From a virus: DNA of 39,938 bases. The translations under genes were made by a program, and so were the position numbers. The notes under the pieces are model-generated. The model was given only the letters and a program-made list of their open reading frames with translations, was not told the origin of the DNA and made no database searches. How positions within the stretch are numbered: the first letter of the stretch is position 1; each line of letters begins with the position of its first letter. Positions 1-39,938 of this stretch are shown here, piece after piece. The stretch covers positions 1-39,938 of IMG/VR virus record IMGVR_UViG_3300045988_121860. One strand, written 5' to 3'.

Positions 1-507
1 GTCGTCGATCGCTTCACTGTTCCCCTGTTCCCCTGTTCCCCTGTTCCCCTGTTCCCCTGTTCCAGGCGCGAGGGTGTCGCGAGGCGTCGCGACAGTGTCG
101 CGAATTGTTGCGACGGTTTCGCGAATGGCGTCGTTCTGCGGGAAAGTGGTGGCGCCCCCCTCTTCGGGTTCGGGGATGCGTGACGCCTTCGGTTTATCTA
201 CCCTCTGGTGCTTTCCCCACCCCGTTACTAGGAAATAGGTCCTAGATGCGACGGTATAGCGAAGGATCAAATCCGCTTCGGAAAGCCTCGCGAGACCGTC
301 GCGAACCTTCGCGACAGTCTCGCGAGGATTCGCGACCATATCGTGCGGATACAGCGCGGCCACGATCAGAGCCACGTCATCACGGCCCCGGCCATGGTCA
401 TCCACATACGACCAGAGCCCAATGAACAGCAGCCGATCACTGTCCGACAGGGCTGCGATATCCGGGCTCGACCAGAACTCCGGCTTGATAGACCGAATCC
501 TCATCAT
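1..507 (-). CDS. Replication initiator / replisome-organiser-like DNA-binding protein, N-terminal 169 codons; the gene crosses the circular junction and continues 39883 down to 39536 (about 284 aa in total)
   Basis: Own translation of the minus frame (codons on 1-3, 4-6, ...) finds no stop between 507 and 1. The first in-frame stop upstream is tta at 520-522. ATG-ATG sits at 507-502 with AGGAGGAA just upstream, and there is an ATGA overlap with the stop of gene 504..956. The N-terminus MMRIRSIKPEFWSSPDIAALSDSDRLLFIGLWSYVDDHGRG carries the IKPxFW / RLLFIGLW signature I recognise from phage replication/DnaD-like proteins. The frame is continuous with ORF 39536..39826 through the 55-nt overlap. 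The ORF is absent from the track because it runs off the window edge. Confidence 0.75.
   Translation of the reverse strand, partial: MMRIRSIKPEFWSSPDIAALSDSDRLLFIGLWSYVDDHGRGRDDVALIVAALYPHDMVANPRETVAKVRDGLARLSEADLILRYTVASRTYFLVTGWGKHQRVDKPKASRIPEPEEGGATTFPQNDAIRETVATIRDTVATPRDTLAPGTGEQGNRGTGEQGNSEAIDD
18..63. repeat. Octanucleotide tandem repeat (TGTTCCCC)x5 + TGTTCC inside the initiator gene
   Basis: Read directly: 18-57 is five exact 8-nt units and 58-63 is a partial sixth. On the coding (minus) strand it encodes GTGEQGNR-GTGEQGNS in the linker of the initiator. Confidence 0.95.
77..124. promoter_or_regulatory. Phased TCGCGA hexamer array A (candidate origin iterons)
   Basis: TCGCGA at 77, 87, 98 and 119, and TTGCGA at 108. 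Spacing is 10/11/10/11 bp, about one site per helical turn. The array lies in the coding linker of the initiator. Confidence 0.55.
288..335. promoter_or_regulatory. Phased TCGCGA hexamer array B (candidate origin iterons)
   Basis: Five perfect TCGCGA at 288, 299, 309, 320 and 330 with the same 10/11-bp alternation as array A. The array lies inside the initiator N-terminal domain coding sequence. Confidence 0.55.
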
Positions 508-5226: not shown

Positions 5227-6477
5227 TCATGGGGTTGGGGTGGAGGTGAGGCCGAGGCGGGGTGCGACGGCCTCAAGAGCTTGGCGGGCCTGATCCAGGT
5301 CGGCGTGCTGGTAGCCCATCGACGTGGTGATCGCGGTGTGGCCCATGATGGCGATGACGACGGTGGCGGGGACACCGGCGGCCATGAGGAGTGTCGCCGT
5401 CGAGTGGCGGGCCTCGTGCACGAGATAGTACCCCCCATCCTCCTTGTGGACGCCAGCGACGTCCTGGAGGGCGCGCCACGCCAGGCGGTCGTCCTTTTTT
5501 GACCATGGGCCGCCGTCGGGGCGGGGCCACACGAGCCCGTAGGGGGACTCGGGGCAGTGGTCCTGCCAAGCGGTCAGGGCCGCTGCCATCCACGGCACCA
5601 GCGGCAGGACGCGGGAGCCCGCCGCGGTTTTGACCGGCCCCCAGTAGTAGCCGTCCATCAGGTGCTCATAGGTGACGCCGTCGGTGCCGGTGATGTCCTC
5701 GGCGGCGGTCATCTCTACGAGCTGGCGGTCTACGGTGAGCGTGCCGGCGTCGAGGTCGATCCGGTCCCAGGTGAGTCCCAGGCACTCCCCCTGCCTCATC
5801 CCCTGGAGGAGGGCAGCGACCCACCGGGAGGCGTCCTGCACGCTAGCGAGGCGGCGGGCGCGCTGGGTCGGGCCACTGGTGGCGTCGGGCAGGGGAGGCC
5901 AGGTGTCGGGCTCGGTGGCGGCCTTCAGGAGGGTGGCGGCGCTAGCGGCGGGGATGGCCTGCCGCTTGGAGGCGGCGGCCTTGGGCTTGGGGGCGAGCAT
6001 GACGGAGTCGGGGATGCGGTGGCCCTCGACGATGGCGGCCCTGAGGACGCGGTGGAGGATCAGCCGGACGTAGCGGATCGACGTCGACGACTTCCCGTCG
6101 CGACGCATCGTGGCCTCCACCTTGCGTAGATCGGTGACGGTGAGGTCGGTGAGGCGGCGGTGCCCGATGGTGGGGGTGACCCACTTACCGAGGAGGGCGA
6201 GGTCGTTGCTGTAGGTGCGGGGGCGGGCGGTGCGCTTGTAGTCGACGGCCCAGGTGTCGATCCATGCCTTGAGGGTGGTGCGTGGGCTGACGACGGTGGA
6301 CTGCTGCTCAGCGAGGACCTCCCGGCGGATGGAGCGCAGGGCGCGCTTGGCCTCGGCCTCGGTGGCTCGCGCTCGGGTGATGCGGCGTCGGCCGCCGGAT
6401 GGCGTGTAGCCAGCCTCGACGCTGGCTATCCATTTGCCGTCTTTGCGCTGGTAGACGGTGCCTTCCCCGTATGCCAT
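5227..6477 (-). CDS. int: Tyrosine integrase
   Basis: 416 aa. The N-terminal arm-binding-type segment is GTVYQRKDGKWIASVEAGYTPSGGRRRITR. The C-terminal catalytic region is ...HEARHSTATLLMAAGVPATVVIAIMGHTAITTSMGYQH (R..HxxR..Y family pattern). Confidence 0.9.
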   Translation of the reverse strand: MAYGEGTVYQRKDGKWIASVEAGYTPSGGRRRITRARATEAEAKRALRSIRREVLAEQQSTVVSPRTTLKAWIDTWAVDYKRTARPRTYSNDLALLGKWVTPTIGHRRLTDLTVTDLRKVEATMRRDGKSSTSIRYVRLILHRVLRAAIVEGHRIPDSVMLAPKPKAAASKRQAIPAASAATLLKAATEPDTWPPLPDATSGPTQRARRLASVQDASRWVAALLQGMRQGECLGLTWDRIDLDAGTLTVDRQLVEMTAAEDITGTDGVTYEHLMDGYYWGPVKTAAGSRVLPLVPWMAAALTAWQDHCPESPYGLVWPRPDGGPWSKKDDRLAWRALQDVAGVHKEDGGYYLVHEARHSTATLLMAAGVPATVVIAIMGHTAITTSMGYQHADLDQARQALEAVAPRLGLTSTPTP

Positions 6478-6593: not shown

Positions 6594-6640
6594 TCGGGCT
6601 GGCGGGATTTGAACCCGCGGCCCCCTGCTCCCAAAGCAGG
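6594..6640 (-). other. attP core: 3' portion of a tRNA-Pro(UGG) gene (anticodon stem to discriminator)
   Basis: The minus strand reads CCTGC-TTTGGGA-GCAGG (anticodon stem-loop, anticodon TGG, G37), GGGCC, GCGGG-TTCAAAT-CCCGC (T arm), CAGCCCG-A. No complementary 5' acceptor strand (CGGGCTG) is present upstream, so this is a fragment and not a gene. Confidence 0.75.
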
Positions 6641-6686
6641 TGTCAACCCAAGGGTGACCCCCTGAAAACACTCACTAAGCCACCGA

Positions 6687-6720
6687 CCAGCCATCCCAAA
6701 ACCAGCCATCAACTAGCCAT
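6687..6720 (+). promoter_or_regulatory. Three direct YAGCCAT repeats (candidate arm-type Int sites, distal arm)
   Basis: CCAGCCAT at 6687-6694, CCAGCCAT at 6702-6709 and CTAGCCAT at 6713-6720, in the same orientation as the pair at 6501-6521. Confidence 0.5.
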
Positions 6721-7595: not shown

Positions 7596-7927
7596 CAGGA
7601 CGCCTCAGGCTCGCTGATAGCGGGCTGCTGCGTCTCAGCCGGGGCGGCGGCCAGCCACGGCACGTAGATGCGCAGCCAGGCGTCCACACCAGGTAGGGCC
7701 ATAATGCGGGTGACCGCACCCGTGATGGCGAGGACACCAGCGGCAGCGCCAGTGGCGACAGCCGGGTCCTGCTGGCTGGCGGCCGTGTAGACCACCGGAG
7801 CCAGGGCGCACAGGCCCACGAGGGCCTGGAAGACCGTCCGGATGACGGCGCGCGACGGATGAATTACCTGGGAGGCGGTAGCCTCATGCTTTCCCATGTT
7901 GTTCCTTCCTTGTTGGGTGGCGGTCAC
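7595..7927 (-). CDS. Holin candidate (110 aa, two TM segments)
   Basis: ORF track. There is an ATGA overlap with the endolysin stop. The TM segments are VIRTVFQALVGLCALAPVVYTAA and AAAGVLAITGAVTRIMAL. It lies directly after the lysin. Confidence 0.6.
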   Translation of the reverse strand: MTATQQGRNNMGKHEATASQVIHPSRAVIRTVFQALVGLCALAPVVYTAASQQDPAVATGAAAGVLAITGAVTRIMALPGVDAWLRIYVPWLAAAPAETQQPAISEPEAS

Positions 7928-9654
7928 CAGAGGCGGCCGCTGTTTGCCCGGCTGTTGTTGAGTGCGCGCTGGAGTGCGCCGATCGTGGCGGGGCCGGCCT
8001 CGCCGTCAACCCAGTCAGCGAAGTCCCAGCCTGCCGGCAGGTACTCGCGATGCCAGGCCATGATGAGGAACTGCAACGTCCTCCACGTGTCAGCCCCAAG
8101 GACGCCGTCGACGTCGAGCGCCGGGGAATCGTTGAGCGCCTGCTGCTGGTCGGCCTTCACGGCCGCGTTCAGGAACGACTGAAGCCGCTCAACCGCCGGG
8201 CTGCCGTCCTCGTTCAGGATGCCATCGATCGGGGTCCCCATGACCTGCTGGAGCCGCCCGATCGTCGCGATACCGAAGACGCCGTTGCAGACAAGTTCGC
8301 TCTGGCCGTCGCTCTTGTTCTTCTTTCCGGTGTAGGGGCTCGCCGACGACGCTGGGGCGGTCGCTGGCGCGGTGGCGGCGACCTGGCCGCCGCCCTTCAT
8401 CGTGTCCCACGCGCTGCGGTCACGCAGACGGTCCAGATCGAGACGCTTGCTGTAGCCAGGCAGGTAGCCGTCCTCGGTGTACTGGTGAATCAGGACGTTG
8501 CCGCCCCAGTAGGGGACGGTCGGGACGGCGGGGTCCGAGTAGGCGCGGCCGTAGTCGCTGTACTCGGGCCCACCGGCGTACCACAGCGGGAAACGGCCGG
8601 CCACAGCGGACCAGTCTCCGCTCTCCAGGCCCGCCCCGTTCAGGTAGATGCCCGGAGTGGATCCGATCTCGGCGACCATCTGGTTGAGGATCACGAGGGC
8701 GTCCGAGGGGGTCAGGTTGAGGGCGTCAGCCTCCCAGTCCAGCCAGAACGTCGCCCTTCCCGCGTAGCTCTTGGCGCGGTCGAGGAAGTAGCGGGCCTGC
8801 TCGTCCGCGCCCTCGTCGTTGGCGAAGAGGTAGAGCCCCAGCCTCTTCCCGGCGGCCAGTGTTGCCTCCGCCTGGGCACGCCAGAACGGATTCTCATAGC
8901 CGGTTCCCTCCGTCACCTTGACGATGACGAAATCAGCCCAGATCGCGCCGATATTGAGCCCGCCCTGGTGGCTGGAGATGTCGATGCCGTGCGCGTGCTG
9001 CGGCGCGGCAGCCTGAGATGCCGGAGCGGCCGGCTTGGAGGCCGGGGCCGACGCCTTCCACTTGGCGAACTGGGGCCACTGCGACAGGAATTTGCTCTCG
9101 TTGAAGCGGTGGCAGGAGGTCCACGCGCCTCGCTGAGTGTGCGGGTGCTCGCTGTAGCGCTCGGTCCGCGTCTCCTGCCCGGTCTGGTCCCCCGCGGTGC
9201 CCGCAATCGAGCCGTCCTCGGCGATCCACGCCTCCGCCACGAGCGGGTCGCCGCCGCCCTCGACTGCGACCACGACGTGGCCTACGCCGCCCTCGTTGCC
9301 CGCCGAGAGGATGATGTCGCCGACCTGGAAGCCGCCGGACGGGGTGAGGTCAGCGTCGTTCCACGGGACCTCGTTGAAGCCGTGCGACTCCATGCCGGCA
9401 CGCATGTTGCCGGTCCAATAGTCATTAATTTCGAGCAACGCGGAGTGCCCCCACGGCACCCCGTAGGTGTGGTGGATGCCGTAGGAGATGGCCCCGCACG
9501 CCAGACTGGAGCAGTCCGCGTTCTGGGGGCTGGAGACCCGTCCGTGCGCGTCAGCGGCCGCGTACCAGCTGCGGCGCTCGGGCTGCGAGTAGCCCACGTT
9601 CTGTTCGTCGCAGATTCGCCGGGCGATCTCAGCGGTGACGCTGCCGACGGTCAT
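7924..9654 (-). CDS. Multidomain endolysin: N-terminal Cys-peptidase (CHAP/NlpC-like), central GH25 muramidase, C-terminal wall-binding repeats
   Basis: 576 aa. The peptidase region is ...NADCSSLACGAISYG...GDIILSAGNEGGVGHVVVAV. The GH25-like region is HGIDISSHQGGLNIGAIWADFVIVKVTEGTGYENP...WLDWEADA...IHQYTEDG. The C-terminal PG-binding-like repeats are GVFGIATIGRLQQ and VDGVLGADTWRTLQ. Confidence 0.85.
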   Translation of the reverse strand: MTVGSVTAEIARRICDEQNVGYSQPERRSWYAAADAHGRVSSPQNADCSSLACGAISYGIHHTYGVPWGHSALLEINDYWTGNMRAGMESHGFNEVPWNDADLTPSGGFQVGDIILSAGNEGGVGHVVVAVEGGGDPLVAEAWIAEDGSIAGTAGDQTGQETRTERYSEHPHTQRGAWTSCHRFNESKFLSQWPQFAKWKASAPASKPAAPASQAAAPQHAHGIDISSHQGGLNIGAIWADFVIVKVTEGTGYENPFWRAQAEATLAAGKRLGLYLFANDEGADEQARYFLDRAKSYAGRATFWLDWEADALNLTPSDALVILNQMVAEIGSTPGIYLNGAGLESGDWSAVAGRFPLWYAGGPEYSDYGRAYSDPAVPTVPYWGGNVLIHQYTEDGYLPGYSKRLDLDRLRDRSAWDTMKGGGQVAATAPATAPASSASPYTGKKNKSDGQSELVCNGVFGIATIGRLQQVMGTPIDGILNEDGSPAVERLQSFLNAAVKADQQQALNDSPALDVDGVLGADTWRTLQFLIMAWHREYLPAGWDFADWVDGEAGPATIGALQRALNNSRANSGRLW

Positions 9655-14470: not shown

Positions 14471-17400
14471 TCAGTCGTTGCGTGAGACCTCGACGGCGAC
14501 ACGCTCGGCCTCGACGCGCATCCGGCCGACCAGTTCGCCGTCGACGTCGCGCACCTCCAGCACGCTCGGCGCGTTGCCGCCCTTGGACAGGAGGTCGTCG
14601 ATCTTCGACCACTGGCCGCCGGTGAAAACCGGCTCCGGGCGCCCGGTGGCGTTGAGGACCGTCGTCAACCCCGGCTGCAAAAGGCCCCCGCTGTCGAACT
14701 TGTAGAGCCCGGTGCTCGGGCTGCCGTAGATCGGGGTCTCACGGACCGGGATCCCGAAAGTCGGGGCCTCGACCATCATGCCGTTACCGGAGGCGATGGC
14801 GATGTGGTGCGCCGGAGCGCCCCAGAACAGGAGCGTGCCAGGCGTGTTGTAGGACCCGCCGGGCGTGCTGCCAGCCTGATAGCCGGCCGCCGTCAGGCGC
14901 GGAATCTGGGAGCCCATCTGGTGGGCCGCCCAGTACACGAGACCGGAGCAGTCGACGCCGGGCGGGATCGAGGATCCGCCCCACACGTAGGTTGCGCCGA
15001 TCGCCTTCCTCGCGGCGTTCACGATGTCGCTGGCGGCCATGGTCGCGGTCTTGCTCTTGAGCCACTGACCGAAACCGTCAACCCACTTGCCGGGCAGTGC
15101 GGCCGCCATGTCCTTGAAGAAGCCGGATCCGGGCAGGCCGCCCATGACGGCATTCATGGGGATGCGGATAAGGTTCTCGACCGCCCCGAGCGGGTCGGAG
15201 ATGATCGAGGCGACCGCATCCGCTGCACTGGAGAGCCAGCCGGTGGCCGCATCCCATCCGCTGCTGGCGGCTCCCTTGATCTTGTCCCAGATGCCGCCCT
15301 TGGCGAAAGCGGCGAATTTCGCGCCCGTGTCCCCGCCGGGGATGTGCGCCCCGCTACTCCCCCTGGCTGCGGCGTTCATCCGGTGGACGGCGGCGGGGCC
15401 GCCGACCGCCTTCACCCACTCCGGCCTCATGATGGCCTCACCGCCAGACAGGGCAATAGCGCCACCACCGTCAGGCGAGTAGAAATGGTAGATGTCCCGT
15501 CCCGGACTGTATCCGGGAAGGACACCACCGGTCGCGTACCCTGGGATTGGGCTGACGTCCGGGAGGCGGAGCGAGAGCCCCAGTTTCTCCGCAATGGAAT
15601 CGGCCGTCTTCTTAATACCATTCTTGTAAACGGTATTAATGATGAAGTTGATCGGCTTTGCAGCGATCCCCTTAACGGAGTCCCACACGGTCTGAATACC
15701 GGACTTCATGTTCTCGAAAGCCTTTTTGATATTCGTCGTGACCGTGTCGAAAATAGGCTTCAGAGTGTCCTGGAACCAAGATGCCACCGTGTTAATGGTG
15801 CTCTTGATGCCGTTCCAGACGGTCTTGATTCCGCCCCACAGGAGGTCGGCACCATTCTTGATGCCGTTCCACACCGTGGAGATGACGGGCTGCACATAGG
15901 TCTGGAACCACGAAACGACCGTGAGAACAGTCGACTTGATGCCATTCCAGATCGTGACGATGCCATTCCATAGGAACTGGGCGCCTACCTGAATCCCGGT
16001 CCACACTGCGGAGATGACCGGCATGACGTAGGCAGTGAAGAAATCTGCCACCACTTGCACGGCCGCCTTGATCCCATTCCAGATCGTGACGATGCCGGCC
16101 CACAGGAATTGTGCGCCCGCCTGAATCCCCGACCAGACAGCGGAGAGAACCGGCATGACGTAGGCGTTGAACCAGTCGACAGCGACGCCGACGGCAGCCT
16201 GAATCCCGGCCCACACAGCCTGAATCCCAACCCACAAATACTGTGCGCCGGTCACAATCCACGACCAGACCGTCGCCAGTGTTGGGGCCACGTAGGCCAT
16301 GAACCAATCCACAGCCAACTGGACCGCGACCTGAATCAGAGTCCAGACCACAATGAACGGAATGGATAATGCCCAAATCCCGACCTTGATAGCCGTCCAC
16401 ACGGCCTCAAAAACCGGCACCACATAGGTGCTGAACCAGTCCGCGACCGCCTGCACCGCAGTCTGAATACCCGACCAGACACCAGAAACGATGCTCACGA
16501 GCCCGTTCCAGATGCCCCCCAGAATGCCCACAGCGCCCGTGATAGCCGGCACCACGTAGGAGGTGAAGAACCCAGACACGGCGTTCCACACCGTATTCCA
16601 GGCCGAGCTGAGAGCATTCAGGGTCGCATCCCAGTATGGGGCAATCCAGTCCAGAAACTTGTGGAACTCCTCGGTGATAGCCGCCCACGCCTTCTTGCCT
16701 GTCTCCGTCTGGGTGAAAAACCACGCCAGGGCGGCGACGACGGCGAGAATCGCCGTCACGATGAGAATGTACGGGTTCGCATTCGAGACCACGTTGAAGG
16801 CCGCCTGGGCATTCTTCGCGGCATTGACAGCGCCTTCCATGGACTTGAGGCTGGTCACCCATTTCAGGATGCTGCCGGCCTGCTTGATCGCGTCAATCGT
16901 CGTCGTGGCCTTGTGGAGGCCATAGAAGGCGGTGGCCGCGGTGCCGACCGTGACGGCCAAGGTCGACAGCATCCCCTTGTGCTCAATACCCCAGGCCGTC
17001 GCCGTCAAGAGGGCGTCACCCACCTTGACGATGGCGTCACGCAGGCCCTCCAGGAAACTGGTCAGCGGGGAATTCGGGTCGAGCCCGAAAAGGGGCTTGT
17101 CCGTCTCCCCGGTGAAGATGATCTCCGTGAGCCCCTGCACCGACGGAATCAGCGTGTCATTGATCCACGTGCCGGCCTCGATAGCGGCGTCACGGACACT
17201 GAAGAGGAAATCCACCAGGGCAGAATCCTCTTCGAGGCCGAATAGCGAATCAGGTCCCTGATAGTCGCCGGAGAAAAGGATGCTAGCGACACCCTGTAGA
17301 CCGGGAACCAGGGTGCCGGTAATCCAGTCGCCGGCCGCACGGGCGGATTCGCCGATCTTGAAAAGGAAGTCGACAATACCGGAATCCTCTTCGAGGCCGA

Positions 17401-18361
17401 AGAGTTTATCGGACCCATCAAACTTCCCCTTGGAGAGAATGTCCCAGACGCCCTGAATCCCAGGGACAAGCTTGTCGTTGATCCACCCGAAAGCCGCCTC
17501 GGCTCCGGTGGCGACATTCCCCATGAAGTCAGTCAAGGCAGGCTTGATCTGGTCGACGATACCCATCGCACCAGACACAAGGGCGGCCTCAAGGTTCCCC
17601 CAGGCGCCCTCAATCGTCTTGGTCGACGTCGCCGCTTCCTTGGCGACATCCGTCATACCAAGATCCATCACCGCGGCATTGAATTCCTCGGCGGTGATCT
17701 CGCCCTTCTCCATCGCCTCACGGAAATTCCCCGTGTAAGCACCAGCCTCAAGGAGGGCCTGCTGGAGTTTCCCTGACGCGCCAGGAACCGCGTCAGCCAA
17801 CTGATTAAAGTTCTCGGTGGTGAGTTTCCCCTGACCGGCGGTCTGGGTAAGCACCATGCCGACGGACTTGAATGTCTCAGCATTTCCACCGGCGACGGCG
17901 TTCAGGTTACCGGCAGCCTCGGCGAGTTTGTCGTAGCCCTGGACATTGTTGGACGCCAGTTGGGCGGTGATCGACTGAATATCGGACAGGCCGTAGACGG
18001 TCTTGTCCGCGTATTCCTTCGTGCTCTTGGTGAGCCGGTCAACGTCGGCCGCGGACTTGCCCGCGAAGCCCAGGGTGTTCTTGAACTTGTTCGTCGCGTC
18101 GGAGGCGTCGATGGCCTGCTTCGCGATATCCGAGAAACCCGCAGCGAGTCCGACAGCGGACGTGACAGCCAGCGCCCCGGCCGCGATCTTCCCGACCTTC
18201 TGGAAAGCGCCACCCAGGCCGCTCGTGATCTTCCGCTCGGCCGGCCGAGTGTCGACGTCCCCCAGGGCCTCCTTGAGCTGCTGGGAGATCGCCTTGGTGG
18301 AGAGGGCAACCTGAATCCAGGCTGTGCCAATGGTGTGTCCCGTGGGCTTGCTACCAGCCAT
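14471..18361 (-). CDS. Tape measure protein with C-terminal NlpC/P60 peptidase domain (1296 aa)
   Basis: ORF 14471..18400 trimmed to Met14 (MAGSKPTGHTIG...) after GAGGAGG. It has three ~48-aa LFGLEEDS...VDFLF repeats (about 17060-17470) and about seven ~37-aa Trp-rich hydrophobic repeats (about 15690-16610). The NlpC/P60 segment is YVWGGSSIPPGVDCSGLVYWAAHQ...HHIAIASGNGMMVEAP (about 14723-15017). Confidence 0.9.
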   Translation of the reverse strand: MAGSKPTGHTIGTAWIQVALSTKAISQQLKEALGDVDTRPAERKITSGLGGAFQKVGKIAAGALAVTSAVGLAAGFSDIAKQAIDASDATNKFKNTLGFAGKSAADVDRLTKSTKEYADKTVYGLSDIQSITAQLASNNVQGYDKLAEAAGNLNAVAGGNAETFKSVGMVLTQTAGQGKLTTENFNQLADAVPGASGKLQQALLEAGAYTGNFREAMEKGEITAEEFNAAVMDLGMTDVAKEAATSTKTIEGAWGNLEAALVSGAMGIVDQIKPALTDFMGNVATGAEAAFGWINDKLVPGIQGVWDILSKGKFDGSDKLFGLEEDSGIVDFLFKIGESARAAGDWITGTLVPGLQGVASILFSGDYQGPDSLFGLEEDSALVDFLFSVRDAAIEAGTWINDTLIPSVQGLTEIIFTGETDKPLFGLDPNSPLTSFLEGLRDAIVKVGDALLTATAWGIEHKGMLSTLAVTVGTAATAFYGLHKATTTIDAIKQAGSILKWVTSLKSMEGAVNAAKNAQAAFNVVSNANPYILIVTAILAVVAALAWFFTQTETGKKAWAAITEEFHKFLDWIAPYWDATLNALSSAWNTVWNAVSGFFTSYVVPAITGAVGILGGIWNGLVSIVSGVWSGIQTAVQAVADWFSTYVVPVFEAVWTAIKVGIWALSIPFIVVWTLIQVAVQLAVDWFMAYVAPTLATVWSWIVTGAQYLWVGIQAVWAGIQAAVGVAVDWFNAYVMPVLSAVWSGIQAGAQFLWAGIVTIWNGIKAAVQVVADFFTAYVMPVISAVWTGIQVGAQFLWNGIVTIWNGIKSTVLTVVSWFQTYVQPVISTVWNGIKNGADLLWGGIKTVWNGIKSTINTVASWFQDTLKPIFDTVTTNIKKAFENMKSGIQTVWDSVKGIAAKPINFIINTVYKNGIKKTADSIAEKLGLSLRLPDVSPIPGYATGGVLPGYSPGRDIYHFYSPDGGGAIALSGGEAIMRPEWVKAVGGPAAVHRMNAAARGSSGAHIPGGDTGAKFAAFAKGGIWDKIKGAASSGWDAATGWLSSAADAVASIISDPLGAVENLIRIPMNAVMGGLPGSGFFKDMAAALPGKWVDGFGQWLKSKTATMAASDIVNAARKAIGATYVWGGSSIPPGVDCSGLVYWAAHQMGSQIPRLTAAGYQAGSTPGGSYNTPGTLLFWGAPAHHIAIASGNGMMVEAPTFGIPVRETPIYGSPSTGLYKFDSGGLLQPGLTTVLNATGRPEPVFTGGQWSKIDDLLSKGGNAPSVLEVRDVDGELVGRMRVEAERVAVEVSRND

Positions 18362-18427
18362 CCCGGCCCCTCCTCTATATGCTGGGAGGCCCCACAGCAC
18401 GCCACTGTGGGGCCTCCCTCGTGTTGG

Positions 18428-23224: not shown

Positions 23225-23974
23225 TCACTCGGCGGGGGAAACCCCGTCAGTGAAAGACTCAGGGGCGACGCGGCGCATCTCGGCGGCGATCGCCTTGTCG
23301 TCGACGGCGGCCCCAGACGCCTTCACGGCCGCCCTGGCCTTGTCATAGGTGGCACGCAGAGCCTTCGGGTCATAGCCATGGATGTTGGCCGCCTGGCCCT
23401 TCCATAACGGCGTCGGGACGCACGAGCAGTGATCGTGGTAGGCGTGCCCCTGCCCGGCCGTCGTGGCACTGGCGTAGACAAAACCACGGGAGGCGAGCAT
23501 GCTGCACCAGGCGCAGCAGCCGCCAGGGCCGGGCACGCGCGCCCACCGAGGTCGGGCAGGGTCGACGGCGACGTTCCGGTGCACCGTGTCCTTCCCCTGC
23601 TGCCCAATGAATCGGGACAGCGCGTTCCCCAGGGTGGCCTGCACCCCAGCCGGTTCAGCGCCCCACAGGCCGCCGACCGCCCAGCGGGTCGCCTGCGCCA
23701 CCTGCACCTCGGACGGCCCGTCAGCCAGGATGGCCGAGTAGGTGCCGCCGACGGCGTCGGCACGCAGCCGCTCATACCACTCCGCAGCACTGGACGCGGC
23801 TAGGTCGCCGTACTGGGCGGCGATGGCCGGCATCACCGCCAGAAGAGCATCACGCGCAGCCTCAGGGCTGGACAGGTCCAGGCGCCCAAACGCCGCCGAC
23901 AAGGCCGCCAACGCCATCCGCGTGGCCTCATCCAGGCCGCGGGACAGGCGCTCTAGGTCAGCCCGCGTCGTCAC
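23225..23974 (-). CDS. MuF-like minor head / head morphogenesis protein (249 aa)
   Basis: ORF track. It lies after the portal and carries a C-terminal CCAWC...HDHCSC motif as in SPP1 gp7/MuF-type proteins. Confidence 0.7.
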   Translation of the reverse strand: MTTRADLERLSRGLDEATRMALAALSAAFGRLDLSSPEAARDALLAVMPAIAAQYGDLAASSAAEWYERLRADAVGGTYSAILADGPSEVQVAQATRWAVGGLWGAEPAGVQATLGNALSRFIGQQGKDTVHRNVAVDPARPRWARVPGPGGCCAWCSMLASRGFVYASATTAGQGHAYHDHCSCVPTPLWKGQAANIHGYDPKALRATYDKARAAVKASGAAVDDKAIAAEMRRVAPESFTDGVSPAE

Positions 23975-25445
23975 CGCTGGTCACCTCGACCGGGGCCTCA
24001 GTGGGCTCCTGCGGCTCCTGCTCGGGCGGGGTGGGCGTGGACGCCAGCAGACGATCCAGCACCCCACCAGCCTGCGCCCGCTTGATCTGCGACCGAATCC
24101 TGACGATCTGCTCAGCACTGTACCCCAGTTCCTCCAGGGCCACGTCAGTCTGAGCGAGCTCCGGAATCGCGCTGATCTGCTTGACCACGGCGTCGGACTG
24201 GCTGACGACACTCGGCATGGCCGGGTTGCGCCACCTCGTGGCGAGATTCCGCACCTCGTCATCCATCTCAGTCACGGGGATACCGTCACGGAGGCAGATG
24301 GCGTCCTGCACGATCCGGTTCAGGCCGTAGCCGATAGATCGCGTCGTGTTCTGCGCCTCGATGACCAGGTCCTCCTTGGCGGCGTAGATCGCCTCAGCCG
24401 AGGACGGGTTGTCCTGGACGATGCCGAGCGCGGAGATCGGCAGTGACGTCGCCGAAGCGAACTCGGCCGCGAGCGCCCTCTTCATCGCCAAGAACGGCTC
24501 CATGCTCTGCTGCGGGATCACCTGGAGATCGGGCTTGTCCCCGTCCTCGTCCTTCGGCAGCGATTTGAGGCGCCCCATGTACCAGGACCAGAGCGGAACC
24601 TTCTCGCCCTGGGCGTCCTGGAACATCGTCTCATCCGCCCCCAGCAGCAGCAGCGCCGGAGCCGCGTACAGGTCGCTACTGACTTCGGTGCGGAAGCCTG
24701 CCCTGACGACGCGGTCCGTGATGGACATGACCTCGCGGCTGATACGCGACCGCCCAAACGGGCGGCCGAGCGCAGGTCGGTACGGCAGAGGCTCCATAGG
24801 GACGCGCCCCAGGGAGTGGTCCATCCTCGCGACGGCCACCCACCCCCGGTCGCCCAGGGCCAGGCGAGTCACATGCTCAGCCGTCAGCAGCAGCATCGAC
24901 GTCGGCTTGCCGTTGTCATCCGCAGAGTCCACCAGCAGGCCAGCCTCCAGGCCACGACGACGCACATCCCACAGGCCAGTAGCCCACAGAGCGTCAGCAC
25001 CCGTCACAACCACGTCAGGGTCACCCGCAGCCGGATCACCCGGCAGGGCCACCACGAACGAGCAGCAGTAGGTGAGGGTCGCGTCCACAAGCTCGGGCAC
25101 GAGCAGGTCGAACCTGTTCTCGTGCAGCAGCGACATGGCCCCTAGGGGGTCCTCCTCGCCTGACGGCGACGTGACCCCATCCCACATGCAGCGGGACGCC
25201 AGCGACGTGACCGCCTTATCCGGCCAGCCACAGACGATATCCAGTTGGTCCCGCATGTAGGGCGGCACCGAGGCACCCAGGAACGCCACGTTCACCTGCA
25301 TGTCCCGGTACTGGCGGCGGAGAGCGTTTCGGGCGCGCTTGGCCTGCCACTGCTTGACCAGGCGGGCCATGAGGGCGGCGTCATCCTCAGCCAGGCCGAC
25401 GACGTCGGTCGGCACCGGAGAGTAGTAGGCCCACTGGTCCATCAC
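23958..25445 (-). CDS. Portal protein (495 aa)
   Basis: ORF track. The size, the position after terL (ATGA overlap) and SPP1 gp6-like features support the call. Confidence 0.85.
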   Translation of the reverse strand: MMDQWAYYSPVPTDVVGLAEDDAALMARLVKQWQAKRARNALRRQYRDMQVNVAFLGASVPPYMRDQLDIVCGWPDKAVTSLASRCMWDGVTSPSGEEDPLGAMSLLHENRFDLLVPELVDATLTYCCSFVVALPGDPAAGDPDVVVTGADALWATGLWDVRRRGLEAGLLVDSADDNGKPTSMLLLTAEHVTRLALGDRGWVAVARMDHSLGRVPMEPLPYRPALGRPFGRSRISREVMSITDRVVRAGFRTEVSSDLYAAPALLLLGADETMFQDAQGEKVPLWSWYMGRLKSLPKDEDGDKPDLQVIPQQSMEPFLAMKRALAAEFASATSLPISALGIVQDNPSSAEAIYAAKEDLVIEAQNTTRSIGYGLNRIVQDAICLRDGIPVTEMDDEVRNLATRWRNPAMPSVVSQSDAVVKQISAIPELAQTDVALEELGYSAEQIVRIRSQIKRAQAGGVLDRLLASTPTPPEQEPQEPTEAPVEVTSGDDAG

Positions 25446-26917
25446 ATCACCACCCCCACGCGGGCACCGGCCAGTTCGCGCGGCCTGCGCTTCGTTGTCT
25501 TCGTGGCCCAGTGGGCCAGTGTCAGTGCGTCCATCCCGGCTGAGGTCATCCCCTCCGGGGCGGTCCAGCCGAACCCGCCGGATGCGCCGATCTTCCGGCG
25601 GGAGATGACGGCGGCCTCAGCCTCAAGCTCGGCGTCGTCCGGGTGCGACAGGGTGCGGTCCCGGATCGCGGCGTCCATCATCGCGTGCGCGGCGATGACC
25701 TGATCCGTCGTCGGCGTCCAAATCACCTTCGGGCTGAATCCTGCGGCGCGGAGGCGGTCAACCAGGTCGCCCGCGCCGGACTTGCCGTCGACGACGATCT
25801 GCGCCCACCGGTCCCGGTGCTCGGTCAGGTAGTCCAGGATCCAGTGGACGCCCTCACCCATGTTGCGCACCCCCTGCGAGGTGCACAGCTGAGCATAGAC
25901 AGCCTCACTCTTGCGCTCAGGCTTGCGGCCAGCGCGAGCCAGGGCCACCGTAGAGCCGTCCACCGAGAACCTCACGGCCGCGCACCAGCGCAGCCCGCTC
26001 GGGGCGTCGTCCACCGTCAGGGCGTTCCACGCCTCGCGGCCGATTGCCTGAGAGGCGACCTCCGGGTCCCAGATTCCCAGGCCCTCGCGACGGAACGACT
26101 CTGGCCCCAGTTGGCGCTTCATCCGCAGGATCGCCGACTCCGGCGTCCGATGCGGGAAACTCGGGTTCGCCTTCCGCCACTGCTTCCTGTCGTCCGGGTC
26201 CGCATCGTCATCCGCGCCGACCTCGACATACAGGCCATCACTCATCTCACCCGCGAGCGCTTGCTTCCTGAACGTCGTGAACGCCTCAGACGGGTCCGTC
26301 GGGCGCGGCGGCGTACCCAACCTCAGGATCAGTGGGTTCGGGGCGGTATTGACCGCGGGCACCATGTCATCCAGCGCCCGCTGGCCGAGGATCTGCGCCT
26401 CGTCAAAGACGATGATGTCGACGCCGGCGAAGCCACGGCCGAAGCCGCCCTCGCGGGCGCCGAACAGGATGCGGCTCCCGTTGGTGAACCGGATCTGCTG
26501 CTGGCCGTTCGCCTGCCTTGGTCGGCCGTCGATGTACGGGGCGATCTCCGGCTTCAGGGCGAGCCCCTGCATCGACGCGAACGTCTCATCCGCCGTCCTC
26601 GTGCGGTGTGCCGTCCAGAGGACGAAGAGCCCTTCGTTCAGGGTGCACAGGGCGAAGATCATCGCCCCGAAGGTAAAAGTTTTGCCCGCTTGACGGCAGA
26701 TCGAGACCTGCACGCCGTCGATGCTGGCCGCGTAGAGCCCACTCTTCCGCTTCGCCAGGATCGCGCGCCCCAGCCCGTCCTGCCAGCGGTCGAAGGTCAG
26801 GCCGAAGCGCTTCGCCCGGTCGCGGACGGCCGGCCAGCCCGTGGACGTGATGCCCTCGGGCAGGATGAGGTGCTTGGCGATGTCGGACAGGCGCGGCTCA
26901 GATGTCCCCGAGCCCAT
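25442..26917 (-). CDS. terL: Terminase large subunit (491 aa)
   Basis: ORF 25442..27058 trimmed to Met48 (MGSGTSEPRLSDIAKHLILPEG...). It has a Walker-type segment (VSICRQAGKTF) and DIIVFDEAQ, and its start overlaps the terS 3' end. Confidence 0.85.
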   Translation of the reverse strand: MGSGTSEPRLSDIAKHLILPEGITSTGWPAVRDRAKRFGLTFDRWQDGLGRAILAKRKSGLYAASIDGVQVSICRQAGKTFTFGAMIFALCTLNEGLFVLWTAHRTRTADETFASMQGLALKPEIAPYIDGRPRQANGQQQIRFTNGSRILFGAREGGFGRGFAGVDIIVFDEAQILGQRALDDMVPAVNTAPNPLILRLGTPPRPTDPSEAFTTFRKQALAGEMSDGLYVEVGADDDADPDDRKQWRKANPSFPHRTPESAILRMKRQLGPESFRREGLGIWDPEVASQAIGREAWNALTVDDAPSGLRWCAAVRFSVDGSTVALARAGRKPERKSEAVYAQLCTSQGVRNMGEGVHWILDYLTEHRDRWAQIVVDGKSGAGDLVDRLRAAGFSPKVIWTPTTDQVIAAHAMMDAAIRDRTLSHPDDAELEAEAAVISRRKIGASGGFGWTAPEGMTSAGMDALTLAHWATKTTKRRPRELAGARVGVVM

Positions 26918-27194
26918 CTTCGTCTTCCGTTGCCTCGGTCGCCGTCTGCCGCTCATGCTCCTCGCGAGCCAGGTCGATCTCCCGGATGGTCTTGTCCACC
27001 TCCAGGAGGCGACGGGATAGGGCGGCCAGGTCGCGGGCAGGGGTGCTCGGGTCATCAATAGACGCAGCGAGGCGACGGCGAAGCGTCACCATCACGTCCC
27101 TGCTGTCCCCGTGCTCCGTCGCATCCAAGACGCTCCCAGGGGCCTGAGGAGCCGTCTCGTCGTCCCTCACGGCACGGAGTCTCGCGGCACTCAT
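26898..27194 (-). CDS. terS: Terminase small subunit candidate (98 aa)
   Basis: ORF 26898..27200 with the ATG at 27194 after AAGGGGG. LRRRLAASIDDPSTPARDLAALSRRLLEVDKTIREID resembles actinophage small terminases. It lies between HNH and terL. Confidence 0.6.
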   Translation of the reverse strand: MSAARLRAVRDDETAPQAPGSVLDATEHGDSRDVMVTLRRRLAASIDDPSTPARDLAALSRRLLEVDKTIREIDLAREEHERQTATEATEDEDGLGDI

Positions 27195-27259
27195 AAGCAC
27201 CCCCTTGGGAAAAAACAGTGGGGAGAGATGCCGCTATACCCACGGGGGGGCGAGAATGG

Positions 27260-27290
27260 CCGGGCGGGGGGTATATCCCCCCTGTCCCGG
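27260..27290. other. G/C-run palindrome in the HNH-terS gap (candidate cos/terminase recognition element)
   Basis: CCGGGC-GGGGGG-TATAT-CCCCCC-TGTCCCGG with a perfect core GGGGGGTATATCCCCCC at 27266-27282. A G7 run lies at 27244-27250. Confidence 0.3.
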
Positions 27291-27306
27291 TGTTTCTGTG
27301 GCTACT

Positions 27307-27627
27307 CTACCATGTTTCGTGGTCGGTTGTTGGTTTGATTCTGGCCGTTTGGTTGCGTTTCCGTTTTGGTGGCCGCACTTTTCTGCCGTTTCCTTTGTGT
27401 TGGTTGCATTTTCGGCAGATGATTTGAATATTGTCTAATGAGTCGTTTCCGCCTCGACTGTGAGGCACGATGTGGTCGGCCTCAGGGCTACTAGGCAGTA
27501 GGCTAGCGTCCCAGGCGAGGCGGACGTGGCAGAGCGGACAGTGCTCTAGTCCTGCCGCGCGCGCGCTGCGCTTGGCCGCTGCTGCGTTGTGGAGCCAGCG
27601 TGTGGTGCCGGTGCGTGAGGTGGTCAC
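27307..27627 (-). CDS. HNH endonuclease (106 aa), packaging-associated
   Basis: ORF 27307..27732 trimmed to the GTG at 27627, 5 nt after GAGGAGG. CPLCHVRL...ADHIVPHSRGGNDSLDNIQIICRKCNQHKGN is a canonical HNH motif. It lies immediately upstream of terS/terL. Confidence 0.85.
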   Translation of the reverse strand: MTTSRTGTTRWLHNAAAAKRSARAAGLEHCPLCHVRLAWDASLLPSSPEADHIVPHSRGGNDSLDNIQIICRKCNQHKGNGRKVRPPKRKRNQTARIKPTTDHETW

Positions 27628-38855: not shown

Positions 38856-39539
38856 TTAGGCCGCTCTAGGGGCCTTACGTGCACGATTCGGGGCACTTCC
38901 GGCCCCACCGTCACCCCCGAGGTGCGACGAACGCGCCAGAGCGGCCAGCACCTCACGAGCCCGAGCCGCCCCATCGCCCGACGACTCAGGCGACGGTGCA
39001 GCCGTCAACTCGGGCACCGGGCGGGCCGCCGGGAGCGCGTCAGCCCACGGCACACGCCCCACGCCCAGGGCGTGATCCATCCGGGACAGCACCTCCGGCA
39101 GCGGCGTCGCCGGCTCCAACTCGGCCACCTGAACCGCCTGGGCCAGCGCCGCACGCCCGTGCCGGTCCGCTTCGACGTCGTCGACGCCGTTGCCGATCGC
39201 CCGCAGGAAGCCCCGCAGGTACGCCGACTGCTCGAAGCCGCTGCGGCCCTCCGTTGGCAGGCTGTGGCGCTCGCGCCAGGCCCGGATGCGCTCGCCACGG
39301 ACGGCCTTCGCGGCCCGGTTCACGTGCTGCGGTTTCGCCGCCCCGTAGGTCTCGACGTTGCCGGACGCGACGCGGCGCACCGCCTCCGCGAGCACCTCGT
39401 CGGTCATGTCCTGGTCCAGGAGCGTCATCCAGGCGCGGATGCGTCGCTTACCACCCTCGGCGTCGACGATGCCGGGCAACATGCCGGCGTCCACGAGGAT
39501 GCCGATCGCCAGAGAAACCCCTGTCGCCGTAGCCATCAC
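38856..39539 (-). CDS. Replication-module partner protein (227 aa), helicase-loader position
   Basis: ORF track. The GTG/ATG start overlaps the initiator stop (GTGA at 39536-39539). No Walker motif was seen, so the functional assignment rests on position only. Confidence 0.55.
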   Translation of the reverse strand: MMATATGVSLAIGILVDAGMLPGIVDAEGGKRRIRAWMTLLDQDMTDEVLAEAVRRVASGNVETYGAAKPQHVNRAAKAVRGERIRAWRERHSLPTEGRSGFEQSAYLRGFLRAIGNGVDDVEADRHGRAALAQAVQVAELEPATPLPEVLSRMDHALGVGRVPWADALPAARPVPELTAAPSPESSGDGAARAREVLAALARSSHLGGDGGAGSAPNRARKAPRAA

Positions 39540-39938
39540 AGGCCCTCCTTCGCGAACTGCTCGGCCAGGTCGTAGAACACCTGCCCGCCCTGTGGTCGCC
39601 CCTGGGGGCGTTGGGCTTGGAGGCGGAGGGTGTCGAACTTTTGGCGGAGCTTGGGGACGCTGAGGACGTTGGCGCGCCAGAAGTCGTTGCCCTCAGCCCA
39701 GTCGATGATGCGGGTGATCTCTTCGACGGTGCGGTCGTCTCGGTCGATCATGAGGCGTGCCTGCGTGCGCCAGGCGGCGGTGACGCGTGGGGCTCGTCCG
39801 GTGCGACGCTGGACGCTCGCGGCCATGGCGTCGCAGACGGCGTCGACGTCGGGGCGGGGGTCTTCGACGGCGTGCAGATCGACGTCGTCGATCGCTTCAC
39901 TGTTCCCCTGTTCCCCTGTTCCCCTGTTCCCCTGTTCC
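39536..39938 (-). CDS. Replication initiator, C-terminal part (continues from 1..507; 39884-39938 duplicates 1-55)
   Basis: ORF 39536..39826 stays open upstream to the window end in the same frame (…EAIDDVDLHAVEDPRPDVDAVCDAMAASVQ…). The C-terminal WAEGNDFWRANVLSVPKLRQKFDTLRLQ resembles the DnaD/replisome-organiser C-terminal motif. Confidence 0.7.
   Translation of the reverse strand, partial: EQGNRGTGEQGNSEAIDDVDLHAVEDPRPDVDAVCDAMAASVQRRTGRAPRVTAAWRTQARLMIDRDDRTVEEITRIIDWAEGNDFWRANVLSVPKLRQKFDTLRLQAQRPQGRPQGGQVFYDLAEQFAKEGL
39884..39938. repeat. 55-nt exact copy of 1..55 (circular-closure overlap)
   Basis: GTCGTCGATCGCTTCAC + 4 x TGTTCCCC + TGTTCC is identical at both ends of the window. 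Confidence 0.95.

What the first reader, a model, noticed from the sequence alone, without database searches (positions are those of the whole stretch)
77..335. Two helically phased TCGCGA arrays flanking a low-GC spacer inside the replication-initiator gene: a lambda O/ori-like origin
Nine perfect TCGCGA and one TTGCGA fall in two blocks of five, with first bases at 77, 87, 98, (108), 119 and at 288, 299, 309, 320, 330.

Spacing alternates 10/11 bp, giving 21-bp dimers. That is one palindromic hexamer per helical turn, all on one face of the DNA.

A by-eye scan finds only about twenty more TCGCGA in the remaining ~39.5 kb, so ten sites in ~260 bp is a strong local enrichment.

Both blocks lie inside the initiator ORF. 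The hexamer alternates between two codon phases: xxT CGC GAx encodes Arg-Asp/Glu, and xTC GCG Axx encodes Val/Leu-Ala. The heptad peptide repeat (xxR[DE]TVA) therefore does not explain the DNA pattern on its own.

Between the blocks G+C drops to about 52% over 190-280 (hand count), and there is a CTAGGA-N6-TCCTAG inverted repeat at 228-245.

Iterons plus a meltable spacer inside the initiator's own gene, followed by an overlapping partner gene (38856..39539), mirrors lambda O-ori-P.
Basis: partly seen in the sequence, partly recalled or inferred. Interest (0 to 1): 0.8.

Follow-up and report, generated by a model that had tools for sequence, protein, structure and literature searches.

The report
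Replication origin inside phage initiator gene
A temperate actinobacterial phage carries, inside its replication-initiator gene, two helically phased arrays of the palindrome TCGCGA that are conserved as DNA rather than as protein, so they are most likely the initiator's binding sites at a lambda-like origin shared by hundreds of actinobacteriophages.

Summary
Nine TCGCGA plus one TTGCGA lie at the stated coordinates with 10/11-bp spacing, and 9 of the window's 29 sites fall in 259 bp (P about 1e-12).

The hexamers are not a by-product of the peptide repeat. Synonymous recoding gives about 1.2 sites and never more than 6. In 22 close relatives, third-codon positions inside hexamers vary in 1 of 20 columns, against 74 of 135 elsewhere.

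The gene (507..1 joined to 39883..39536 on a circular contig) encodes three parts:
- a predicted winged-helix N-domain;
- a disordered linker;
- a C-domain homologous to the C-terminus of lambda O (hhalign 96%).

One array encodes the presumed recognition helix and the other encodes the linker.

The two-block TCGCGA layout recurs in phages of Mycobacterium, Gordonia and Propionibacterium and in prophages across Actinomycetota. Some relatives carry different short repeats at the same two places. The two blocks stay in helical phase across spacers of 16 to 24 turns.

The overlapping downstream gene co-varies with the C-domain, as lambda P does with O, but it is not a P homologue.

An 8-bp G-tract array (17-63) follows the iterons in one subfamily.

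The origin reading is well supported computationally but untested experimentally. It is a new variant of a known kind.

The parts
1..507 (-). 5' part of the initiator gene (codons 1-169). The ATG codons are at 507 and 504. The Shine-Dalgarno sequence GGAGGA at 514-509 favours the second ATG, which would give the 283-aa MRIRSIKPEFW... form.
   Evidence: PHROG 2149 'replication initiation protein', E = 4e-77. Database relatives start MRIRS.
39536..39883 (-). 3' part of the initiator gene. It encodes the helical C-terminal domain (aa 175-263), which is homologous to lambda O residues 199-275.
   Evidence: ORF across the circular junction. (AlphaFold2). (hhalign probability 96%, E = 3.5e-9, 33% identity). 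(PHROGs annotated 'replication initiation O-like' and 'DnaD-like helicase loader').
288..335 (.). Iteron block I (first in gene order): five TCGCGA at 288, 299, 309, 320 and 330. It encodes aa 58-74, which overlap helix 61-77. That helix precedes the beta-hairpin wing, the usual position of a winged-helix recognition helix.
66..124 (.). Iteron block II: TCGCGA at 77, 87, 98 and 119, TTGCGA at 108, and degenerate GCGCGA at 66. It encodes aa 128-147 of the disordered inter-domain linker.
17..63 (-). Perfect 8-bp tandem array: CTGTTCCC x5.9 on the + strand, which reads (GGAACAGG)6 on the sense strand. It starts 12-13 bp after the last perfect hexamer and encodes PGTGEQGNRGTGEQGN. It is the only quadruplex-type motif with G4 tracts in the genome.
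   Evidence: TRF, 100% matches. (unique G4-tract motif, 0.2 expected)..
125..287 (.). Spacer between the blocks. It encodes the wing and the end of the N-domain. G+C dips to 51.6% over 190-280. The block-to-block distance of 211 bp is about 20 helical turns.
228..245 (.). Inverted repeat CTAGGA-N6-TCCTAG. Its arms are invariant in all close relatives even though they require the rare codons AGG and CTA. It is not conserved across the wider family.
38856..39539 (-). Partner gene (226-227 aa). Its start overlaps the initiator's stop codon (GTGATG). It is inherited together with the initiator's C-domain, not with the N-domain.
   Evidence: No Pfam, PHROG or NCBIfam hit. No fold match. Not homologous to lambda P.
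39884..39938 (.). Assembly overlap, identical to 1-55. This marks a circular contig, not a biological repeat.

Best explanation
The region is the phage's replication origin, embedded in the initiator's own gene.

Shown here:
- The TCGCGA lattice is constrained as DNA, independently of the protein it encodes.
- The lattice travels with one type of N-terminal domain.
- The lattice exists as two blocks that keep a common helical phase.
- The initiator's C-terminal domain is homologous to that of lambda O, and it travels with the overlapping downstream gene.

Inferred:
- The winged-helix N-domain binds one hexamer per helical turn on one face of the DNA.
- The two blocks, about 20 turns apart, are joined into a single looped or wrapped complex, in the manner of the lambda O-some.
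- The O-like C-domain then brings in the partner protein and, through it, the host replicative helicase. No helicase, primase or polymerase gene was found among the phage ORFs scanned.
- Strand opening occurs next to block II. This could be in the purine-rich G-tract array, which sits where lambda has its purine-rich A+T tract, or in the low-GC spacer.
For: DNA-level constraint:
- Recoding the peptide with the genome's codon usage gives a mean of about 1.2 TCGCGA and a maximum of 6 in 20,000 trials, against 9 observed. The joint probability of the nine sites is 2e-11. The R-D/E-phase sites need the rare T-ending codons CCT, GTT and ATT, used 5-19% of the time.
- In 18 distinct sequences from 22 relatives, third-codon positions inside hexamers vary in 1 of 20 columns, against 74 of 135 elsewhere (Fisher P = 1.6e-5) and 11 of 12 between hexamers.

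Family-wide conservation:
- The same two blocks occur in Mycobacterium phages Panchino and BigNuz, Gordonia phages Denise and Bantam, and Propionibacterium phage PFR1, at 41-51% protein identity.
- 63 of 80 prophage loci across Actinomycetota have at least 4 sites in the first 560 nt. The density is 8.9 per kb there, against 0.63 per kb in the flanks.
- Reverse test: of 119 viral contigs fetched only by the DNA pattern of three phased TCGCGA, 97 have the array inside a homologue of this N-domain.

Specificity classes:
- Relatives without TCGCGA carry other short palindromic or alternating repeats at the same two places, and the same motif appears in both blocks.
- Across the family, the commonest block-I hexamer recurs 3.0 times in block II, against 0.05-0.16 times in control segments.
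- Initiators with an unrelated N-domain but the same C-domain have their own two-block repeats.

Phasing: the two lattices are in phase at about 10.6 bp per turn in 45 distinct site patterns, with spacers of 16 to 24 turns. The mean cosine of the offset is 0.83, against a null of -0.04 +/- 0.11.

Protein:
- The AlphaFold2 model has a winged-helix N-domain, a disordered linker and a helical C-domain.
- Fold matches are weak. They are all winged-helix DNA binders, and the best is a staphylococcal RepA_N initiator.
- The C-domain is homologous to lambda O residues 199-275.
- The partner gene co-varies with the C-domain, and the initiator-partner overlap is the same as in lambda O/P.

Precedents:
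- Lambda ori lies in the middle of O (PMC7466680).
- The pSK41 Rep boxes lie centrally within rep and encode a dispensable linker, and pPR9 shows an N-domain-plus-ori swap (PMC5703833).
Against: - There is no experimental evidence of binding or of origin activity for any member of the family. None was found in the paper searches.
- GC skew shows no switch at the locus.
- There is no clearly A+T-rich unwinding element. The 8-mer array is 62% G+C. The low-GC spacer is not positionally conserved in distant homologues.
- The N-domain matches no Pfam or NCBIfam initiator family. Its structural matches are weak (best E = 0.026).
- The partner has no detectable similarity to any helicase loader.
- A non-coding low-GC region at about 27.1-27.5 kb could also host an origin and was not excluded.
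Confidence: 0.75

Rival explanations
1. The arrays are binding sites for the initiator, or for another phage protein, but they serve only in autoregulation. Bound protein inside the gene would block or slow its transcription, and the true origin lies elsewhere.
For: Binding sites inside a protein's own gene can act as roadblocks. No unwinding element is clearly identified. Another low-GC non-coding region exists at about 27.3 kb.
Against: The C-domain is homologous to lambda O, whose iterons in the same gene position are the origin. The same gene-internal layout is the origin in pSK41. Two phase-locked blocks of up to five or six sites are more than a roadblock needs. Autoregulation and origin function are not mutually exclusive.
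Confidence: 0.1
2. The arrays form a centromere-like partition site. Plasmid R1 parC has two sets of five roughly 11-bp repeats bound cooperatively by an adaptor protein, and this could be similar.
For: The two-times-five layout at one site per helical turn resembles parC (from memory of the R1 system, not tested). Among the weak fold matches are the centromere binders TubR and AspA.
Against: No ParA-, ParM- or ParR-like gene appeared among the ORFs scanned. The phage has an integrase, so it is expected to integrate. The arrays travel with an initiator-family N-domain fused to a lambda O-like C-domain.
Confidence: 0.05
3. The pattern has no DNA function. A heptad peptide repeat, together with slippage and concerted evolution of a 21-bp repeat, produced it.
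For: The 21-bp period equals seven codons, and the peptide xR[DE]TVAx does repeat.
Against: The hexamer occurs twice per heptad, in two codon phases. Synonymous recoding never reproduces the count. Wobble positions are frozen while neighbouring codons and amino acids change. The hexamer is identical in genes whose encoded proteins are only 30-50% identical. Block I lies in a folded helix, not in a repeat domain.
Confidence: 0.03
4. The hexamers relate to restriction-modification. TCGCGA is the NruI site, so the cluster could be a decoy or a methylation target.
For: TCGCGA is a known type II recognition sequence (PMC9516812 and others listed).
Against: Helical phasing, the two-block layout, linkage to one N-domain type, and replacement by unrelated motifs at the same positions in relatives have no restriction-modification rationale. 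The site is neither avoided nor enriched in the rest of the genome, where 20 are observed against about 21 expected.
Confidence: 0.02

Closest known systems
Bacteriophage lambda O protein / ori-lambda / P
   Same: - The iterons lie inside the initiator's own gene, in the part between the DNA-binding N-domain and the C-domain.
- The C-domain is homologous: hhalign 96%, lambda O residues 199-275.
- A purine-rich tract on the sense strand follows the last iteron directly. In lambda it reads AAAAGAAAAAAGAAAAGA.
- The next gene overlaps by 4 bp, and here it co-varies with the C-domain.
- The N-domain-plus-iterons module and the C-domain-plus-partner module exchange independently.
   Different: - The N-domain is not a Phage_rep_O domain. 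hhalign aligns only the C-domain.
- Lambda has four 18-bp iterons about two turns apart in one block. Here there are 6-bp palindromes, one per turn, in two blocks about 20 turns apart, and one block lies inside the DNA-binding domain's coding sequence.
- The tract after the iterons is G-rich (62% G+C) rather than A+T-rich.
- The partner is not a P homologue.
RepA_N plasmid initiators of Firmicutes (pSK41 Rep, pTZ2162 RepA)
   Same: - A winged-helix N-domain binds Rep boxes located centrally within the rep gene.
- The ori-encoded central segment is a linker.
- The C-domain is host- or partner-specific.
- Natural chimeras swap the N-domain together with the ori (PMC5703833).
- The best fold match of the model is 4pt7, a RepA_N N-domain.
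   Different: - No member of the alignment matches the Pfam RepA_N domain at E <= 1. The fold match is weak (E = 0.026).
- RepA_N iterons are longer, semi-palindromic and A-tract-centred (PMC7145576).
- RepA_N has one block, not two.
- The C-domain here is lambda O-like rather than DnaG-binding.
Iteron plasmids whose Rep protein also binds repeats in the unwinding element (RK2 TrfA, F RepE) and DnaA-trio origins
   Same: An array of double-strand binding sites is followed immediately by short tandem repeats. In those systems the repeats are bound in single-stranded form by the initiator (abstracts of PMC4081077 and PMC10602881, listed). Here the gap from the last hexamer to the 8-mer array is usually 13 or 23 bp.
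   Different: Those unwinding elements are A+T-rich 13-mers or trinucleotides. Here the repeat is a G-tract 8-mer inside a coding sequence. It is present only in a subfamily: 29 of 96 unbiased loci. Single-strand binding is untested.

Membership tests
Lambda O-type initiator with gene-internal origin | The C-terminal domain is homologous to that of lambda O (the part that contacts P) | tested here: met
   hhalign of alignment A1 against lambda O gives probability 96%, E = 3.5e-9 and 33% identity over 75 columns (window aa 187-262 against O 199-275). PHROGs 391, 277 and 9773, annotated 'replication initiation O-like', hit aa 204-264.
Lambda O-type initiator with gene-internal origin | The N-terminal DNA-binding domain belongs to the Phage_rep_O family | tested here: not met
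   No Pfam hit for the protein or for any of 26 relatives. hhalign aligns only the C-domain.
Lambda O-type initiator with gene-internal origin | Repeated initiator-binding sites lie inside the initiator's coding sequence and are constrained as DNA | tested here: met
   Actual binding was not tested.
Lambda O-type initiator with gene-internal origin | An A+T-rich unwinding tract lies next to the iterons | tested here: inconclusive
   After the last iteron comes a purine-rich G-tract array of 62% G+C. A 42-52% G+C dip lies between the blocks, but its position is not conserved in distant homologues.
Lambda O-type initiator with gene-internal origin | A downstream overlapping gene encodes a P-type helicase loader | tested here: inconclusive
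   The position, the 4-bp overlap and the co-variation with the C-domain are met. Homology to lambda P is not (hhalign probability 0.05%). No fold match was found.
Lambda O-type initiator with gene-internal origin | The fragment supports initiator-dependent replication | not testable with these tools
   This needs an ori-cloning or marker-frequency experiment.
RepA_N initiators (pSK41 type) | RepA_N domain (PF06970) at the N-terminus | tested here: not met
   None of 26 family members hits it at E <= 1. There is only a weak fold match to 4pt7 (E = 0.026, probability 0.96).
RepA_N initiators (pSK41 type) | The origin repeats lie centrally in the gene and encode a linker between the N- and C-domains | tested here: met
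   Block II and the 8-mer array encode aa 128-163, inside the segment 118-174 with pLDDT below 50. Block I, however, lies in the folded N-domain.
Type II partition centromere (R1 parC type) | An adjacent partition NTPase gene and a ribbon-helix-helix adaptor gene | tested here: not met
   No such hit appeared among about 27 ORFs scanned, including all neighbours. An integrase is present. Not every ORF of the genome was scanned.
G-quadruplex-forming sequence | Four or more G tracts of at least 3 G, separated by loops of 1-7 nt, on one strand | tested here: met
   The sense strand of 22-57 reads (GGGG-AACA)n with five G4 tracts. It is the only motif of this strength in the genome, with 0.2 expected from shuffles. 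Whether it folds in vitro or in vivo was not tested.

The most novel reading that the evidence does not exclude
Two unusual features may be functional.

(1) Block I, bound by the initiator, is the DNA that encodes the initiator's own recognition helix. This would be a built-in route to new origin specificities, and it could explain the several iteron classes seen at identical positions.

(2) In this high-G+C lineage the A+T-rich unwinding element may be replaced by a (GGGGAACA)n array on the non-template strand of the initiator gene. Transcription of the gene through the array would then open the origin by forming an R-loop or G-quadruplex beside the iteron complex. This would be the counterpart of transcriptional activation of ori-lambda.
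Probability: 0.15. Interest if true: 0.85.

Novelty: new variant of a known kind. Interest (0 to 1): 0.62.

Why it matters
It gives a concrete, testable origin prediction for a very large group of actinobacteriophages and prophages. A protein search found 467 deposited phage records with a match, including cluster N and P mycobacteriophages and Gordonia, Streptomyces and Propionibacterium phages. I found no mapped origin or described iteron for this initiator family.

A roughly 500-bp cassette containing both the initiator and its origin would be a ready source of vectors for Mycobacterium, Gordonia, Actinomyces and their relatives.

The layout also adds to the small set of cases where a regulatory DNA lattice is written through a coding sequence in two reading phases. 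It offers a natural series of specificity classes for studying how initiators and iterons co-evolve.

Tried and rejected
- Near-identity DNA search of 1-1500 against deposited phages found no match.
- The first genome-contig scan with the single protein found nothing. The scan with the alignment worked.
- Sequence searches of the PDB with the protein and with the profile gave only chance hits.
- Pfam and NCBIfam gave nothing for the initiator or the partner.
- The partner was modelled with AlphaFold2 (pLDDT 65) and searched with Foldseek. No match had E below 0.5, and lambda P at rank 9 (E = 4) is meaningless. The 'P-like' label therefore rests only on position and co-variation.
- The cumulative GC skew shows no turning point at the locus and was judged uninformative.
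- Promoter and terminator scans of 1-1600 found nothing. Rfam found only a borderline tRNA-like hit elsewhere.
- The mycobacteriophage RepA paper (PMC7157519) concerns a different RepA family, related to pMSC262-type plasmid initiators, and maps no iterons.
- I first took the 8-mer array to be family-wide (64 of 80 loci). That sample had been fetched with the peptide GTGEQ[GR]NRG. In a sample fetched without that bias, only 29 of 96 loci have the array, and none below 38% N-domain identity. It is a subfamily feature.
- The low-GC spacer as a conserved unwinding element was rejected as a family-wide feature.
- The CTAGGA inverted repeat as a family feature was rejected.
- The 207-aa 'truncated initiators' in the databases were considered as possible phase variants. 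They are more likely assembly artefacts.
Full report
**What the window is.** The first 55 bases equal the last 55, so the window is a circular assembly with a unit of 39,883 bp and 66.9% G+C. It is a temperate tailed phage. PHROG hits identify:
- an integrase at 5227-6477;
- an endolysin at 7924-9654;
- a single-strand-binding protein at 32728-33222;
- a RecE-like exonuclease at 35905-36921;
- a RusA resolvase at 953-1459.

From gene size and position I also take 14471-18400 to be the tape-measure gene and 23958-27058 the portal and terminase genes; these were not scanned.

No helicase, primase or polymerase was found among the roughly 27 ORFs scanned. Homologues of the gene next to the initiator occur in Actinomyces bowdenii and A. 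gaoshouyii. The closest genomic relative of the initiator is in an Actinomyces metagenome-assembled genome. The host is therefore probably an Actinomyces.

**The observation.** Nine of the 29 TCGCGA in the window lie in 259 bp, where 0.19 are expected (P = 7e-13). All eight within-block gaps are 10 or 11 bp. Tandem Repeats Finder reports periods of 10/11 and 21 bp. G+C over 190-280 is 51.6%. The inverted repeat is at 228-245.

**The gene.** The arrays lie in a minus-strand ORF that runs 507..1 and continues 39883..39536 (284 aa, or 283 from the better-placed second ATG).
- It matches PHROG 2149 'replication initiation protein' over its full length (E = 4e-77).
- It has no Pfam or NCBIfam hit.
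- An AlphaFold2 model from 26 sequences gives a confident N-domain (aa 1-117, pLDDT about 90) with a winged-helix layout. Its helices are 22-34, 45-52, 54-59 and 61-77, followed by the hairpin 81-86/89-94.
- Residues 118-174 form a disordered linker, and 175-263 form a helical C-domain.
- Fold matches are weak and are all winged-helix DNA binders. The best is 4pt7, a staphylococcal RepA_N initiator N-domain (E = 0.026).
- The C-domain is homologous to lambda O residues 199-275 (hhalign 96%, E = 3.5e-9, 33% identity).

In gene order, the block at 288-335 comes first. It encodes aa 58-74, most of the helix that precedes the wing, which is the usual recognition helix (an inference from the general winged-helix fold). 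The block at 66-124 encodes aa 128-147 of the linker.

**Is the DNA pattern more than the peptide repeat?** Yes.
- The hexamer occurs twice per seven-codon repeat, in two codon phases.
- Recoding the first 155 codons with the genome's own codon usage gives a mean of about 1.2 TCGCGA. It never gives more than 6 in 20,000 trials, against 9 observed.
- The five Arg-Asp/Glu-phase sites each require a T-ending codon (CCT, GTT, ATT), in a genome where 10% of third positions are T.
- In 22 IMG/VR relatives at 85-95% protein identity (18 distinct sequences), third-codon positions inside hexamers vary in 1 of 20 columns. The figure is 74 of 135 elsewhere in the same alignment (Fisher P = 1.6e-5) and 11 of 12 between the hexamers.
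- Where the residue before Arg changes (Ile, Val, Leu, Ser), the codon still ends in T.
- The window's TTGCGA at 108 is TCGCGA in every relative.

**The family.** A protein search of deposited phages finds 467 records.
- In Mycobacterium phages Panchino and BigNuz, Gordonia phages Denise and Bantam, and Propionibacterium phage PFR1 (41-51% identity), TCGCGA again forms two blocks with 10/11-bp spacing at the same gene positions.
- Of 80 prophage loci from many actinobacterial genera, 63 have at least four sites in the first 560 nt. The density is 8.9 per kb there, against 0.63 per kb in the flanks.
- Conversely, of 119 viral contigs retrieved only by the DNA pattern TCGCGA-N4/5-TCGCGA-N4/5-TCGCGA, 97 have the array inside a homologue of this N-domain. 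Some of those homologues are only about 30% identical.

**Specificity classes and modules.** Family members without TCGCGA have other short palindromic or alternately oriented motifs at the same two places, also 10-11 bp apart. Examples are TCAGTGA/TCACTGA, CGCCGA/TCGGCG, CTCAAGAG, GAGACTC and GAGACACTC. The same motif is used in both blocks of a given gene.

Across the family, the commonest block-I hexamer recurs 3.0 times in the 90 nt of block II. It recurs 0.05-0.16 times in control segments.

Among close relatives the gene is mosaic.
- L020 and L021 keep the N-domain and arrays but have a different C-domain.
- L024-L030 keep the C-domain but have an unrelated N-domain. They lack TCGCGA and have their own two blocks of repeats, followed by an (AGAGAA)n tract and palindromes.
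- The downstream 227-aa gene follows the C-domain, not the N-domain.

So there are two modules, [N-domain + repeats] and [C-domain + partner]. This is the organisation known for lambdoid O/P and for the pSK41/pPR9 Rep chimera.

**Phasing between blocks.** The blocks are 211 bp apart in the window. Over 45 distinct site patterns, with spacers of 16 to 24 turns, the two lattices keep a constant phase (resultant length about 0.85). The phase offset is near zero at 10.6 bp per turn. The mean cosine is 0.83, while shifting block II by random codon multiples gives -0.04 +/- 0.11 with a maximum of 0.39.

The helical repeat was fitted, so 'same face' depends on 10.6 bp per turn; at 10.5 the offset is about 2 bp. 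Shared ancestry inflates the count, but the phase holds across eight spacer-length classes. This points to one complex spanning both blocks, by looping or wrapping. That last step is inference.

**The 8-bp array.** Twelve to thirteen bp after the last perfect hexamer lies a perfect (GGAACAGG)6 array on the sense strand (window 17-63).
- It is read in three frames as GTGEQGNRGTGEQGN.
- This peptide is among the most conserved stretches of the protein alignment, although it lies in a disordered linker.
- In variants the peptide changes while the G tracts persist. Examples are the 7-mer GGGAACA in phage Alderaan, and L110 and L089.
- It is the only quadruplex-type motif with G4 tracts in the genome, with 0.2 expected.
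- Lambda has a purine-rich tract on the sense strand at the corresponding place.
- The array is not universal. In loci fetched without bias towards it, 29 of 96 have it, and none below 38% N-domain identity.

Its role is open. It could be an unwinding or single-strand-binding element, an aid to R-loop or G4 formation, or a shared junction that favours module exchange.

**The spacer.** The G+C dip is kept in all close relatives (51-56%). The arms of the CTAGGA-N6-TCCTAG repeat are invariant there, despite needing the rare codons AGG and CTA. Neither feature is conserved in position across the family.

**Literature.** Searches of the held library found no description of these arrays or of an origin for this initiator family. 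The library is incomplete, so prior description cannot be excluded.

**Verdict.** The steps shown are the DNA-level constraint, the linkage to the N-domain, the phase coherence, the homology to the lambda O C-domain and the modular inheritance. The steps inferred are binding, looping, helicase recruitment through the partner, and the site of opening. It is a new variant of a known kind.

Noticed in passing
It is translated in three frames as GTGEQGNRGTGEQGN, and it is the only G4-tract quadruplex motif in the genome. It is conserved in a subfamily of the initiators and often marks the junction where N- and C-modules are exchanged.
   Followed up: yes
L019 3001-3630; proteins P0058, P0067, P0070, P0071 and P0086: Many database 'initiators' of 184-207 aa are frameshifted at the 8-mer array, which has 4 copies instead of 6 (a loss of 16 bp). 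The C-domain remains intact in another frame. A 34-nt array is exactly the shortest that a de Bruijn graph with k = 33 would return, so these are probably assembly artefacts rather than phase variants. This is unresolved.
   Followed up: partly
window 1-55 and 39884-39938: There is a 55-bp terminal duplication, so the window is a complete circular contig whose break falls 19 nt from the 8-mer array.
   Followed up: yes
L024-L030 (for example L024 2425-3000): These initiators have the same lambda O-like C-domain and the same partner gene, but an unrelated N-domain (MTRSSDRR...). They carry their own two blocks of repeats (ATACGA or AACCGA types), followed by an (AGAGAA)n or A-rich purine tract and strong palindromes.
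   Followed up: partly
window 6594-6689 (-): A borderline Rfam tRNA match (29.7 bits against a cut-off of 29) lies just beyond the integrase gene. ARAGORN does not call it. It may be a tRNA-derived attP core.
   Followed up: no
window 39550-39555: A lone TCGCGA lies near the 3' end of the initiator gene. It is conserved in all relatives that share the C-domain, including those whose N-domain uses other repeats, so it probably reflects coding conservation rather than an extra iteron.
   Followed up: partly
window 27100-27520: A non-coding, T-rich, low-G+C region (33% over 40 bp at 27409) lies upstream of the ORF I take to be the terminase gene (not scanned), with only weak TTGGTTGC-type repeats. 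It is possibly a cos or regulatory region, and it was not excluded as an alternative origin.
   Followed up: partly
window 15935-16207: A 132-bp tandem repeat (2.1 copies, 78% matches) lies inside the 1309-aa ORF that I take, from its size and position, to be the tape-measure gene (not scanned). The lowest-G+C spot of the genome lies nearby, at about 15613.
   Followed up: no
L049, L061, L083, L106 and L116: Family loci with full TCGCGA arrays sit in assemblies labelled Campylobacter, Pseudobdellovibrionaceae, Rugamonas, Pirellulaceae and Burkholderiales. These may reflect mis-binning or contamination, or a wider host range.
   Followed up: no
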